From Escherichia coli (GTDB lineage Bacteria > Pseudomonadota > Gammaproteobacteria > Enterobacterales > Enterobacteriaceae), in NCBI RefSeq assembly GCF_022846255.1, contig NZ_AP025682.1: a stretch of 64,000 bases of DNA; one strand, given 5' to 3'. Positions 29,201 through 32,200 of the stretch are shown one piece after another. The first letter of the stretch is position 1. The number at the start of each line of letters is the position of its first letter. Position numbers: made by a program.

Positions 29201-32200
29201 TAATGCTCTTATTAATAACCACTACAAAATTGTCGCAGCTTCATGGCAGGCGAAGAATAATGCTAACCGCACGTTAGTCATGCCCGTTGTGAAGGCAAAT
29301 GCTCTGACCGAAGGAAATAATAATCGCTGGAATATGGTGTTACCGGCGTGGCAAAGCGCATCCACGAAAGAAGAACAAGAGAAGCTGAATACCTGGCGTG
29401 TACGCCTTGCGCTGGAAGATGAGAAAGGTAACCGTCAAAACTCTGGCGTTGTCGAAATTGTGGTGAAACAGGATCGTAAAATCGAACTGATTGTTAACCA
29501 TATCCTCAGTGTTCCTGTGGAAAATAATCACAACTATCAAGCGGAAGCAAAAGCCGATGGCAGTGATGGTGTTGTTATGGATATGCACATTACTGACAGC
29601 TTTGGTGATAACACTGACAAAAACGGTAATACCCTGCCAGAAACAGGTGTGACGCCTGTACTGTACGACGAGAATGACAAAAAAGTGACGCTTAATACCA
29701 AACCTTGTGCTACTGAAACGCCGTGCGTCTTTATTGCTAAACGCGATAAAGAAAAGGGCACCATTACCTTATCCAGTACGCTGCCGGGGACTTTCCGCTG
29801 GAAAGTGAAAGCAGAGCCGTATAGCGACTCAAACTTTATAGACGTGACTTTTACCAACAGTGCAAATATTGGCGGCATTAATGGTTTTATCTATCGCCTT
29901 GAAGACAGTAGTCCGAAAAATCTCGCAGGTGATGAAAAGCCGATTCCTCTGAAATCAGGTTACCGTTTCGTGATGTGGCGTGATGCTAATAACGATGGCA
30001 TTTATCAGCAGTCGGAAAAACTGACTGAAGAGGAAAAAGCACGTTACGACTATGAGTGGGAATTCACCGGGAAAAGTGCACACGGTGCCACTGGCGCTAA
30101 AGCGAATACGAAAAATGAAGATTTGATCTTGCCAGCCACTAACAGGGAAGCTGCATCGAAATTTGCTGCGGATGAACGTGATGGCGTGCAGGGGTATGGA
30201 ATTCGTGTGGTTTATAGCGAAAAACAATAATTTGTGTAGATATGCAGTACGTCTACGACAGAAGGTTAACCAAGGAGAAAGCAGTAATGAAACTGGAAAG
30301 AAATCGTAATTTAAGGAAGATAGTGCTCGCGATGGCTGTTGCGGGCTATTGTGCCATACCTGCTATTGCATCTGCAGCATGGACTTCTGTGACCGAAAAT
30401 ACTGGCAACATTAACGGTACGGTACCGTGGATTCAGGACACTTCCACAACGCCTGTAGATCACCACGTCAGTATCAGCGCAAAACGCGATGGCAAGAAAT
30501 CAACAGAGCAACTGGCTGTTGGCGATGAAGTGACTGTGCTCTGGGGGCTCGCTGATGCGGAAGGCGATACTGATGCCAATAATGAGTTGACCAAAGCAAC
30601 CATTAAATGGCTGCGTAATGGTCAGGAAATCAGTGGCGTAACGGGCGAAACCTATACACTCACCAGTTCGGATGCGGGTAAAAACATTGGTATCAAAATT
30701 ACCCCTACCACAGCGACTGGTATTCCTGTTGTGGGTGCAGAGTTGACGCTGAGAGATATTACCAATGGTCCGGGCGATGATGATGGCAGTGATGGTTCCG
30801 GTTTTGATGATGGTGGTGGTTCCGCGAGCGATGATATCCCAGCCGGTCCGGTTATTGATAACAAAGTGAAAGTTATTATTTACAAAACGGATGACACCAA
30901 CCAGAAAAACCTGTTGGGTACCACAGATGTTCTGGCAACGAACACCTCCTACAGCGTCATCTTGTACTCTGATGCGAACAACAACAACAAAGTTGATACA
31001 GGCGAGGATGTTACCAGCCAGTACGACTACCGTTGGCGCTTCACTGGAACCAGTGCACACAATACTGCGGGTGGTGTGGTTAAAGATACCTGGAACAACA
31101 CTGCACTGGTTATTCCGGCAACCAACACGGCAGCGGGTACTGCATTCAACAGCACCAGCCTTAATCTCGGCACTGACGGTGTGCAGGGCTACGGTTTGTC
31201 CATCGATTATCAAATCAAATAATCATGACCAATGCCACTTCCTTAGGGGAGTGGTATTACCAGCACACTTTGCTTAATTAACCATTAAGCAAAGTATGTT
31301 GAACCAGAAAATGACTAAAGCGGGATCACTCATGGAAGGGAATTTTAAATTAAAGACCAGTGTCAGCTGCATCTTGTTATCACTGTGTGCTGCTTTTCCT
31401 GCGCTGGCTGATAACTCGGGGAAGTGGCGTAGTGAAGGTACAACCACGGGGCAGTTGAATGGCACGGTACCTACGGCGGAAAGTGCAACAGTGCCAGTGT
31501 ATCAAGGAAGCATTCAACTTGACCCTTCTAGAGCCTACGATGTGCTTTCGACGGCGAAGCCGAAGGAATTCAGTGCTGCTCTCGCGCCGGAAAAATTGAT
31601 CCTGACGAACCCTGAAGATACCGAAGGGGATCTGTTCAGTGTTCCTCCACAATTGAGCTGGCAAAACGACACGTTACCAGTGGTAAGTGTGGTGTGGGCA
31701 AAGGCAGATACACCGGAAACACCATTAACGCAACAGCCTACTGCTGATCTTGCTTTTTGTGCGCAGGGACTTGGCGGACAGCAGTTGGTGGTGTGGTCGA
31801 AAATTGATCCTTCCAGCACAGCGGCCTTATTGTTGCATACGACTACGGGAGTGCCGGATAATGGCCCCGTGTTGTTGGTCGAGAGAAAAGTGTTGCTGAA
31901 AATTGGTGCATCGGTTCAGACGGAGCCGCTCACTGCAGTTACTGACCATTATTCAACCGATTTGAAAGCATCAAAAGTTAAGGTGGGTGAAACCATTACA
32001 CTGACGGTCACCGTAACGGACTGTGGTGGAAATCCGGTTGCCAATGCCCCCTTTAGCATCAGACGTGGCGATGCTATAAATCGTCAAGGAACGGTGAATT
32101 CAGCCAATCCGGTTTCACTGGATTCAACGGTTTTAACCAATACCTCGACGGAATATAAAGGAACAACTGGAGAAGACGGCACGGTGAATATTGCTGTAAC

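What the first reader, a model, noticed from the sequence alone, without database searches (positions are those of the whole stretch)
29950..31222. A C-terminal domain of about 100 aa is shared between the SinH passenger terminus and the adjacent SinI-like protein
SinH-1 ends ...YDYEWEFTGKSAHGATGAKANT..LILPATNREAASKF...DGVQGYGIRVVYSEKQ and SinI-1 ends ...YDYRWRFTGTSAHNTAGG...LVIPATNTAAGTAF...DGVQGYGLSIDYQIK. The same holds in module 2 (35990-37423: YDYQWEFTGHSVNGNTGAQANT..IEIPATNKEAAAKF..DGVQGYGLQVNYSKK against ...FAWVFNGNS...VIPQTNEQARASL...DGVQGYTLSIIYKHH). A secreted protein carrying the same terminal domain as the surface-displayed tip of its neighbouring transporter suggests a decoy, capping partner or homotypic interaction domain.
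Basis: partly seen in the sequence, partly recalled or inferred. Interest (0 to 1): 0.7.

Follow-up and report, generated by a model that had tools for sequence, protein, structure and literature searches.

The report
SinH tip domain repeated in SinI
The last ~120 amino acids of the E. coli surface adhesin SinH are a real, anciently duplicated Ig-like domain that also ends the small exported protein SinI encoded next door; the resemblance is already in the literature, and what SinI does is still untested.

Summary
SinH-1 residues ~611-731 and SinI-1's last ~120 residues align at 36% identity (BLASTP E=5e-20). Module 2 gives 30% (E=9e-10). Profile-profile comparison gives 99.7% probability (E=2e-25) and shows the similarity stops at this one domain. 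It is not low complexity: among 1.84 billion representative proteins, whole-domain matches are only SinH-like and SinI-like proteins, always at the C-terminus. In all 21 complete sinH-sinI pairs examined (Escherichia, Citrobacter, Pseudocitrobacter, Superficieibacter), sinI directly follows sinH. Cognate pairs are no more alike than non-cognate pairs, so the duplication is old and there is no gene conversion. An AlphaFold model of SinI (pLDDT 89) shows two beta-sandwich domains; only generic Ig/FN3 folds match in the PDB.

It is already known. Heinz et al. 2016, citing Kingsley et al. 2003, record the SinI-SinH similarity and the analogy to Salmonella ZirT/ZirS/ZirU, and NCBI names SinI an "autotransporter-associated protein". 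The domain equals SinH "Ig-like domain 3", the SinH-3 vaccine antigen.

Decoy, cap and docking roles all remain untested.

Side observations: the second, divergent sinH-sinI-rat module is unusual, SinI and RatA-like proteins share an N-terminal motif, and the domain carries a conserved EF-hand-like loop.

The parts
28035..30230 (+). [quoted passage not shown]
   Evidence: NF033423 inverse_SinH scores 1400 bits against a cut-off of 999. Pfam IAT_beta covers residues 68-341, E=4.5e-108. Barrel homology to invasin 4e1t and intimin 4e1s.
29865..30227 (+). SinH-1 distal passenger domain (residues ~611-731), the copy shared with SinI. It equals 'Ig-like domain 3 / SinH-3' of the literature.
   Evidence: Its equivalence to SinH-3 (residues 602-724 of the 724-aa E. 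coli SinH) comes from PMC9937491.
30287..31222 (+). sinI-1, a SinI family autotransporter-associated protein of 311 aa counted from the ATG at 30287. The open frame reaches back to 30242.
   Evidence: NF040711 partner_SinI scores 286 bits against a cut-off of 165. AAGGAG lies 9 nt before the ATG at 30287. The signal peptide ends ...AIASA|AW. Homologue P0001 starts at the same Met.
30845..31219 (+). SinI-1 C-terminal domain, paralogous to SinH domain 3
   Evidence: In the AlphaFold model this is domain ~155-281 of the mature protein, with pLDDT about 93-97.
31296..33650 (+). Short RatA-like protein of 784 aa, the third gene of module 1. It lacks the shared domain.
   Evidence: NCBIfam RatA-like, RatA and RatB profiles match partially and below their cut-offs. 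The domain HMM finds no hit.
33685..33712 (+). Strong terminator-like hairpin (12 bp stem followed by a T-run) closing module 1
33777..34001 (+). yfgJ-like zinc-ribbon gene lying between the two modules
   Evidence: ORF with paired CxxC motifs. It is syntenic with the gene annotated 'zinc ribbon domain-containing protein' upstream of sinH in E. coli.
34201..36375 (+). sinH-2, 724 aa, 71% identical to SinH-1
   Evidence: NF033423 scores 1474 bits. BLASTP against SinH-1. 92% DNA identity to sinH of phylogroup B2-type E. coli.
36010..36372 (+). SinH-2 distal passenger domain (residues ~604-724), the shared domain
36431..37423 (+). sinI-2, 330 aa counted from the ATG at 36431
   Evidence: NF040711 scores 370.7 bits. 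The start matches the RefSeq annotation in L001.
37016..37420 (+). SinI-2 C-terminal domain, paralogous to SinH domain 3
37534..45615 (+). RatA-like giant adhesin of 2693 aa, the third gene of module 2. It lacks the shared domain.
   Evidence: NF011844 scores 5431 bits against a cut-off of 3870. The domain HMM gives E=4.1, which is not a hit.

Best explanation
The shared region is one homologous beta-sandwich (Ig-like) domain of about 120 aa. In SinH it is the outermost passenger domain, called Ig-like domain 3 in the literature and proposed there as the receptor-binding tip. In SinI it is the C-terminal half of a two-domain protein that carries a Sec signal peptide. It arose from an old duplication of the 3' end of sinH, or a fusion of it onto a small Ig protein. 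It has since been kept as a fixed sinH-sinI gene pair, built like ZirT with ZirS and ZirU in Salmonella. Shown here: the homology, its limits, its restriction to these two families, the conserved adjacency, the lack of recent gene conversion, and the fold class. Inferred: SinI is exported by Sec, reaches the cell surface or medium in a SinH-dependent way, and acts as an accessory subunit of the SinH adhesin. In that picture its SinH-like domain contacts the SinH tip in an Ig-Ig, pseudo-homodimeric manner. A conserved EF-hand-like loop, D-x-N-x-[DN]-G-x-[FY]-[QD]-x-x-E, may stabilise both copies by binding calcium.
For: Homology. Restriction to SinH-like proteins (~730-750 aa) and SinI-like proteins (~280-400 aa), always at the C-terminus. 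sinI follows sinH directly in all 21 complete gene pairs examined, drawn from 20 loci in Escherichia, Citrobacter, Pseudocitrobacter and Superficieibacter. A divergent locus, L023, has one inverse autotransporter followed by two SinI-like genes, and all three proteins end in the domain, which mirrors zirT-zirS-zirU. There is a 56-nt gap and no terminator-like site between sinH-1 and sinI-1, and a review reports that the two genes are co-transcribed. The SinI-1 N-domain hits the ZirU family profile at E=2e-9. The SinI model aligns with a ZirU family protein and with small 'invasin family' proteins in AFDB50. ZirS secretion depends on ZirT even in E. coli, and the literature already draws the SinH/SinI-ZirT/ZirS analogy. 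The duplication is old: domain identity is 35.9% for cognate pairs and 35.1% for non-cognate pairs, and third-codon-position identity is about 33%. SinI divergence tracks SinH domain 3 (r=0.62-0.63) better than the barrel, D1 or D2 (r=0.33-0.47).
Against: No experiment or structure prediction of a SinH-SinI complex was possible here. Both domains are acidic (mean net charge -4.4 and -6.5), so charge complementarity does not support docking. The 22 positions conserved in both copies are mostly core-type residues (I, L, Y, W, F, G, P) and may reflect only the fold. The correlation is equally explained by the D3 coding region lying next to sinI. IatB, the E. coli SinH, mediates biofilm formation without the downstream gene. 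At least one distant SinI-like gene (L024) has no neighbouring inverse autotransporter. How a partner could pass through a barrel already occupied by the autotransporter's own linker is unresolved even for ZirT.
Confidence: 0.45

Rival explanations
1. Common-ligand module. Both copies bind the same host or bacterial ligand. SinH presents the domain anchored to the cell, and SinI supplies a soluble or released form. SinI would then compete, bridge or pre-coat, and could also absorb antibodies raised against the SinH tip (a decoy).
For: Polar residues are conserved identically in both paralogues across genera (N629, D650, S681, N694, T702, N703, D716, Q719 in SinH-1 numbering), together with the EF-hand-like loop. 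The domain is the distal tip, which the vaccine paper proposes as the receptor-binding domain. SinI and SinH D3 are the fastest-evolving parts of the pair, as expected for exposed surfaces: mean pairwise distance is 0.33 for D3 and 0.44-0.47 for SinI, against 0.18-0.26 for the barrel, D1 and D2.
Against: No ligand is known for either protein. At 31-37% identity, cross-reaction with antibodies is uncertain. Release of SinI has not been shown. The fold searches give only generic Ig/FN3 matches and no lectin or receptor-binding family.
Confidence: 0.25
2. Periplasmic helper or export-related role. SinI stays in the periplasm or acts during export. Its Ig domains assist folding or translocation of SinH and/or the RatA-like giant protein, in line with the Heinz et al. 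model in which Ig domains bind substrates on the periplasmic side. The shared domain would be a recognition handle, not a surface module.
For: Heinz et al. propose a two-partner-like dynamic model for ZirT, SinH and Yfr4. SinI and both RatA-like proteins share a motif just after the signal peptide, W..TG.[FIL].GT[VI]P, and their N-terminal regions show weak profile similarity (hhalign E=6e-5). The domain ends in a conserved strand, G-x-Q-G-[FY]-x-[LI]-x-[VI]-x-[YF], at the extreme C-terminus of the transporter and of the partners even in divergent loci.
Against: SinH is reported on the cell surface, and immunisation with SinH-3 protects mice, so domain 3 is exposed. SinI evolves faster than any SinH domain, which is unusual for a housekeeping export factor. 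There is no sequence or fold link to known periplasmic chaperones.
Confidence: 0.15
3. No functional coupling. The similarity is a relic of domain shuffling among Ig-like adhesin modules, and SinI works independently of the SinH tip.
For: An orphan SinI-like gene exists without a neighbouring transporter. IatB works without the downstream gene in a biofilm assay. There is no excess similarity between cognate domains.
Against: The gene order and the shared C-terminal domain are strictly kept across four genera and in a very divergent locus. The domain occurs in no other protein family among 1.84 billion representatives, which argues against a freely shuffled module.
Confidence: 0.12
4. Chance or compositional similarity.
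For: None. Only the DxNxDG loop region gives partial motif-level hits to repeats in unrelated giant proteins.
Against: BLASTP E=5e-20 with composition-based statistics. hhalign E=2e-25. Reciprocal matches to curated profiles. 22 columns are conserved identically across 42 sequences.
Confidence: 0.01

Closest known systems
SinH/SinI (SivH/SivI) of the Salmonella CS54 island, and IatB/EcSMS35_2660 (SinH/SinI, 'ila locus') of E. coli
   Same: These are the same families. Both SinH copies and both SinI copies score above the curated NCBIfam cut-offs. The gene order der-(yfgJ)-sinH-sinI-ratA-like-xseA matches E. coli. The SinI-SinH similarity is already recorded (citing Kingsley et al. 2003).
   Different: The window carries two divergent modules in tandem, with only 71% DNA identity over sinH. 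None of 5,426 complete E. coli genomes matches this arrangement. Module 1 ends in a short 784-aa RatA-like protein.
ZirT-ZirS-ZirU of Salmonella, an inverse autotransporter with co-encoded secreted Ig-like partners
   Same: Both have an inverse-autotransporter barrel protein followed by small genes that encode a signal peptide but no barrel, and whose products resemble the passenger's Ig domains. The SinI-1 N-domain hits the ZirU profile at E=2e-9, and the SinI model aligns with a ZirU family protein. Locus L023 even has two partners.
   Different: SinI is not a ZirU family member: it scores 37.9 bits against a cut-off of 100. The SinH/SinI shared C-terminal domain gave no sequence match to the ZirU profile. 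Only ZirS has been shown to be secreted in a transporter-dependent way. The SinH modules also include a RatA-like giant protein.
Receptor-binding tips of intimin and invasin (C-type lectin-like D3/D5)
   Same: Both sit at the distal end of an inverse autotransporter passenger. The vaccine paper calls the SinH tip the 'receptor binding domain'.
Classical two-partner secretion (TpsB/TpsA, type Vb)
   Same: [quoted passage not shown] This analogy is drawn in the literature.
   Different: The transporter here is an IAT_beta barrel, not an Omp85/POTRA protein. SinI has no TPS domain and no Pfam hit at all.

Membership tests
SinH, intimin-like inverse autotransporter (NCBIfam NF033423) | Full-length match above the curated cut-off of 999 bits | tested here: met
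   1400 bits for SinH-1 and 1474 bits for SinH-2, covering the whole model
SinH, intimin-like inverse autotransporter (NCBIfam NF033423) | N-terminal inverse-autotransporter beta-barrel (Pfam PF11924) | tested here: met
   IAT_beta covers residues 68-341, E=4.5e-108. The barrel matches the solved invasin and intimin barrels.
SinI family autotransporter-associated protein (NCBIfam NF040711) | Full-length match above the curated cut-off of 165 bits | tested here: met
   286 bits for SinI-1 and 370.7 bits for SinI-2
SinI family autotransporter-associated protein (NCBIfam NF040711) | Encoded directly downstream of sinH on the same strand | tested here: met
   True for both window modules and for all 19 other complete gene pairs examined
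SinI family autotransporter-associated protein (NCBIfam NF040711) | Signal peptide present, no beta-barrel | tested here: met
   The N-terminus has a basic stretch, then a hydrophobic stretch, then AxA, ending ...AIASA|AW; this was read by eye because no signal-peptide predictor was available. No IAT_beta hit. The model is two soluble beta-sandwich domains.
ZirTSU-type system (inverse autotransporter plus secreted Ig-like partners) | Partner shares sequence similarity with Ig-like domain(s) of the transporter's passenger | tested here: met
ZirTSU-type system (inverse autotransporter plus secreted Ig-like partners) | Partner secretion depends on the transporter | not testable with these tools
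   Shown only for ZirS and ZirT. No data were found for SinI.
ZirTSU-type system (inverse autotransporter plus secreted Ig-like partners) | Partner binds the transporter's passenger | not testable with these tools
The Prehna et al. 2012 paper could not be opened.
ZirU family (NCBIfam NF040485) | Score above the curated cut-off of 100 bits | tested here: not met
   SinI-1 scores 37.9 bits (E=2e-9), N-domain only, and SinI-2 gives no hit. The domain is related, but SinI is not a member.
Two-partner secretion (type Vb) | Omp85/POTRA transporter and a TPS domain in the substrate | tested here: not met
   The only Pfam domain in SinH is IAT_beta. SinI has no Pfam domain.
Intimin/invasin C-type lectin-like receptor-binding domain | C-type lectin-like fold at the passenger tip | tested here: not met
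   No Pfam hit. The PDB fold searches return only generic Ig/FN3-type sandwiches.
Calcium-binding beta-sandwich repeats (SdrD-B-like, DUF2141-like) | Membership of the Pfam family, and a DxNxDG-type calcium loop | tested here: inconclusive
   The loop is conserved in both paralogues and gives partial HMM hits to SdrD-B-like repeats. Pfam matches are not significant: DUF2141 scores E=0.39. Calcium binding itself cannot be tested here.

The most novel reading that the evidence does not exclude
SinI may be a mosaic adaptor of a three-part surface adhesin. Its C-domain is a paralogue of the SinH tip. Its N-domain, including the motif W..TG.[FIL].GT[VI]P that sits just after the signal peptide, resembles the N-terminus of the co-encoded RatA-like giant proteins. 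Either this N-terminal element is a shared recognition signal by which SinH handles both SinI and the RatA-like protein, a TPS-like branch of type Ve secretion. Or SinI physically bridges the anchored SinH tip to the RatA-like adhesin, which has no anchor of its own. A practical corollary is that SinI could affect how well antibodies raised by the SinH-3 vaccine reach their target.
Probability: 0.15. Interest if true: 0.6.

Novelty: already known. Interest (0 to 1): 0.25.

Why it matters
SinH is a candidate vaccine antigen against extraintestinal pathogenic E. coli, and the protective fragment SinH-3 (residues 602-724) is exactly the domain shared with SinI. The vaccine paper never mentions SinI (one search counts zero occurrences). 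If SinI is released or displayed on the surface, it could bind the same target or soak up antibodies. If it caps the SinH tip, it could hide the epitope. More generally, how inverse autotransporters of the ZirT/SinH type deal with co-encoded Ig-like partners is still unresolved. The SinH-SinI pair, with one cleanly delimited shared domain, is a simple system for testing that. The sequence observation itself adds nothing beyond published work and current NCBI annotation.

Tried and rejected
1. Single-sequence AlphaFold of SinI-1 gave pLDDT 40 and was unusable. This used one of the two structure jobs, so no SinH-SinI complex could be predicted.
2. Sequence search of the PDB with SinI found nothing meaningful. 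SinH matched only the barrels of invasin and intimin.
3. Pfam found no domain in SinI or in SinH beyond IAT_beta.
The four-sequence domain alignment A1 worked.
5. The search for homologous proteins with the domain profile returned mostly fragments. With the SinI N-domain profile it returned only four SinI proteins and no ZirU proteins. A direct comparison with ZirT, ZirS and ZirU sequences was therefore not possible.
6. Kingsley et al. 2003 and Prehna et al. 2012 could not be opened. Their content is cited only through Heinz et al. 2016.
7. Recent duplication or gene conversion was rejected. Cognate and non-cognate domain identities are equal, and third-codon-position identity is about 33%.
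8. Extra copies of the domain in the RatA-like proteins were rejected.
9. Similarity of SinI to other SinH passenger domains was rejected.
10. Charge complementarity between the two copies was rejected.
11. I considered whether the conserved C-terminal strand (VQGYGLSIDY and similar) is an outer-membrane-protein beta-signal. It fits the pattern only loosely, so I did not pursue it.
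Full report
**What is in the window**

The region holds two same-strand modules.
- Module 1 is sinH-1 (28035-30230, 731 aa), sinI-1 (open frame from 30242, real start ATG 30287) and a short RatA-like gene (31296-33650, 784 aa).
- A strong terminator-like hairpin (33685-33712) and a yfgJ-like zinc-ribbon gene (33777-34001) follow.
- Module 2 is sinH-2 (34201-36375, 724 aa), sinI-2 (36431-37423) and a 2693-aa RatA-like gene (37534-45615).

NCBIfam places both large proteins in inverse_SinH (1400 and 1474 bits, cut-off 999). 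It places both small proteins in partner_SinI, "SinI family autotransporter-associated protein" (286 and 371 bits, cut-off 165). In SinH, Pfam sees only the IAT_beta barrel (residues 68-341). In SinI it sees nothing.

The flanking der and bamB genes are 100% identical to an E. coli strain, so the window is E. coli. The locus is the known der-yfgJ-sinH-sinI-ratA-like-xseA island.

**Checking the observation**

The quoted C-terminal strings are present. The pairwise results are:

| Comparison | Identity | Columns | E-value |
|---|---|---|---|
| SinH-1 618-730 vs SinI-1 212-326 | 36% | 119 | 5e-20 |
| SinH-2 609-721 vs SinI-2 206-329 | 30% | 128 | 9e-10 |

The curated family profiles cross-match over the same stretch. 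A profile-profile comparison of 29 SinI sequences against 22 SinH passengers gives 99.7% probability, E=2e-25, over 114 columns. No other part of the passenger aligns; the next hit has E=0.58.

So the similarity is real and confined to one terminal domain of about 115-125 aa. An HMM of the four copies finds no further copy in the window, including the RatA-like proteins.

**Is it a common or low-complexity feature?**

No. A profile search of 1.84 billion representative proteins finds 57 hits at E<=0.001.
- All whole-domain hits on complete proteins fall in proteins of about 280-400 aa (SinI-like) or about 730-750 aa (SinH-like), always at the C-terminus. The remaining hits are short fragments of these two families, plus the giant repeat proteins noted next.
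- The rest are partial matches to profile positions ~20-70 in giant repeat proteins. These come from a calcium-loop-like motif (LYxDANxNNxxDxGE) found in SdrD-B-like repeats.

**Conservation of the pair**

A scan of one genome per species returned 19 loci in Escherichia, Citrobacter, Pseudocitrobacter and Superficieibacter. Adding two E. coli loci, one read-assembly locus and the window gives 21 complete sinH-sinI pairs, and in every one sinI directly follows sinH and both end in the domain.

More distant relatives vary.
- Locus L023 has one inverse autotransporter followed by two SinI-like genes. All three products end in the domain, a zirT-zirS-zirU-like layout.
- One distant SinI-like gene (L024) is an orphan with no neighbouring transporter.

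**Age of the duplication**

Across the 21 pairs, cognate SinH/SinI domain identity is 35.9% and non-cognate identity is 35.1%. Within the window, every SinH-SinI domain comparison, cognate or crossed, falls within 31-37%. Codon-aligned DNA identity is 46-49%, with third-position identity about 33%. The duplication therefore predates the divergence of these genera, and no gene conversion keeps the copies alike.

Twenty-two positions are at least 90% conserved with the same residue in both paralogues. Most are core-type residues. The polar ones are N629, D650, S681, N694, T702, N703, D716 and Q719.

Both copies keep an EF-hand-like loop:
- SinH: D-x-N-x-D-G-x-F-Q-x-S-E
- SinI: D-x-N-x-N-G-x-Y-D-x-G-E

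Calcium binding is my inference only.

**Fold**

With a 54-sequence alignment, AlphaFold gives mature SinI-1 a mean pLDDT of 89 and pTM of 0.75. The model has an N-domain (~1-130), a disordered Gly/Asp/Ser linker (~134-148) and a C-domain (~155-281), both mainly beta.

The fold searches gave:
- Foldseek against the PDB: no hit at E<=0.001.
- AFDB50: SinI proteins, SinH, "Aec3", a ZirU family protein and small "invasin family" proteins of other enterobacteria.

The SinI-1 N-domain also hits the ZirU profile at E=2e-9, well below the family cut-off.

**What is already known**

Heinz et al. [quoted passage not shown] They say this was "previously documented" by Kingsley et al. 2003, note that SinI lacks a barrel, and compare the system with ZirT/ZirS/ZirU. 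They propose that such transporters export the co-encoded proteins. Goh et al. 2019 repeat this for E. coli IatB and show that IatB-mediated biofilm formation does not need the downstream gene.

Gal-Mor et al. 2008 show that ZirS secretion depends on ZirT, even when the system is rebuilt in E. coli. A 2025 review reports that sinH and sinI are co-transcribed.

Xing et al. 2023 define SinH "Ig-like domain 3", residues 602-724, as the putative receptor-binding domain. They use it as the protective antigen SinH-3. That fragment is exactly the shared domain, yet the paper does not mention SinI.

**Mechanism**

My best-supported reading, at about 0.45 confidence, is a ZirTSU-like accessory relationship. 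SinI is exported by Sec, reaches the surface in a SinH-dependent way, and associates with the SinH passenger. The paralogous domains would provide the contact.

For this reading:
- The pairing is strictly conserved across genera.
- One divergent locus carries two partners.
- There is a homology link to ZirU.
- SinI divergence correlates better with SinH domain 3 (r about 0.62) than with the barrel, D1 or D2 (r 0.33-0.47).

Against it, or neutral:
- That correlation is also what physical linkage would give.
- Both domains are acidic, so there is no charge complementarity.
- IatB works without SinI in one assay.
- An orphan SinI-like gene exists.
- The topological problem of exporting a partner through an occupied barrel is unsolved.

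The rivals are a common-ligand or decoy role (0.25), a periplasmic or export helper (0.15), no coupling at all (0.12), and chance (refuted). The divergence gradient fits exposed surfaces under diversifying pressure but does not separate the models. Mean pairwise distances are barrel 0.20, D1 0.18, D2 0.26, D3 0.33 and SinI 0.44-0.47.

**Side observations**

1. The two modules are not a recent tandem duplication.
   - They share only 71% DNA identity, and only over sinH.
   - Module 2 is 92% identical to B2-type E. coli alleles. Module 1 is about 86% identical to the E2348/69-type allele.
   - No complete E. coli genome among 5,426 carries both.
2. SinI and both RatA-like proteins carry W..TG.[FIL].GT[VI]P just after the signal peptide.
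   - The pattern hits only these four proteins in the six-frame translation of the window.
   - A SinI N-terminal HMM ranks the two RatA-like proteins as the top non-SinI hits (E=0.004 and 0.2).
   - hhalign gives 65% probability, E=6e-5, over 62 columns.
   - SinI thus looks like a mosaic of a RatA-like N-terminal element and a SinH-like C-terminal domain. This supports the more novel adaptor or shared-signal reading, which I rate at 0.15.

**Verdict**

The novelty class is "already known". Interest is 0.25, raised slightly by the overlap with the vaccine antigen and by the N-terminal motif.

Noticed in passing
window 30377-30436 (SinI-1), 36521-36590 (SinI-2), ~31422-31490 (784-aa RatA-like), ~37621-37690 (2693-aa RatA-like): SinI and both RatA-like proteins share the motif W..(S/T)TG.[FIL].GT[VI]P just after the signal peptide. 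The pattern hits only these four proteins in the six-frame translation of the window. A SinI N-terminal HMM ranks the RatA-like proteins as its top non-SinI hits (E=0.004 and 0.2). hhalign of the N-terminal regions gives E=6e-5 at 65% probability. It could be a shared recognition or export element, or simply a homologous N-terminal domain. The core I-x-G-x-x-P is also kept in very distant SinI-like proteins.
   Followed up: partly
window 27321-45615: Two divergent sinH-sinI-ratA-like modules sit in tandem between der and xseA. None of 5,426 complete E. coli genomes covers 80% or more of either query. Module 2 is 92% identical to B2-type alleles and module 1 about 86% to the E2348/69-type allele. 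The modules share only 71% DNA identity, over sinH alone, and there is no yfgJ remnant upstream of sinH-1. This looks like acquisition of a second allele and not a recent duplication. An assembly chimera cannot be excluded from the sequence alone.
   Followed up: partly
window ~29982-30017 (SinH-1 D650-E661), ~30965-31000 (SinI-1), and the equivalent positions in module 2: An EF-hand-like loop, D-x-N-x-[DN]-G-x-[FY]-[QD]-x-x-E, is conserved in both paralogous domains across all 21 pairs. It explains the partial HMM hits to SdrD-B-like repeats of giant proteins. It suggests calcium binding, which is untested.
   Followed up: partly
window 36010-36372 (SinH-2 residues ~604-724): The shared domain coincides with the published vaccine antigen SinH-3 (residues 602-724 of the 724-aa E. 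coli SinH). The vaccine paper does not mention SinI, which carries a 31-37% identical copy.
   Followed up: partly
window 31296-33650: The module 1 RatA-like protein is only 784 aa, against 2693 aa in module 2. It matches only the N-terminal ~310-390 residues of the RatA-like, RatA and RatB profiles. E2348/69-type strains have an IS4 transposase annotated under the matched stretch, next to the adhesion-domain gene, and similarity to the window stops about 340 nt into this gene.
   Followed up: no
window 30242-30286: The mechanical ORF for sinI-1 begins at 30242. The likely real start is the ATG at 30287, which follows AAGGAG and agrees with homologue P0001 and the NCBIfam model start. The conserved 'AGYC' in the signal peptide is not a lipobox, because Tyr occupies position -1.
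   Followed up: yes
L023 2547-6885, L024 6001-7074, L025 3-1782: The architecture varies in distant relatives. L023 has an inverse autotransporter, apparently split by a frameshift, followed by two SinI-like genes. L024 (CP050253.1) has an orphan SinI-like gene between slyX and an EamA-family gene, with no transporter nearby. In L025 an upstream protein ends ...GDQGFGLWVEAVANP before a SinI-like gene. The extreme C-terminal strand G-x-Q-G-[FY]-x-[LI]-x-[VI] is kept in all of them.
   Followed up: partly
window 28035-31222 and loci L001-L022: Divergence rises along the system. Mean pairwise distances are SinH barrel 0.20, D1 0.18, D2 0.26, D3 0.33, SinI N-domain 0.47 and SinI C-domain 0.44. SinI distance matrices correlate with SinH D3 (r=0.62-0.63) better than with the barrel, D1 or D2 (r=0.33-0.47). 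This fits either co-evolution or recombination blocks that span the 3' end of sinH plus sinI.
   Followed up: partly
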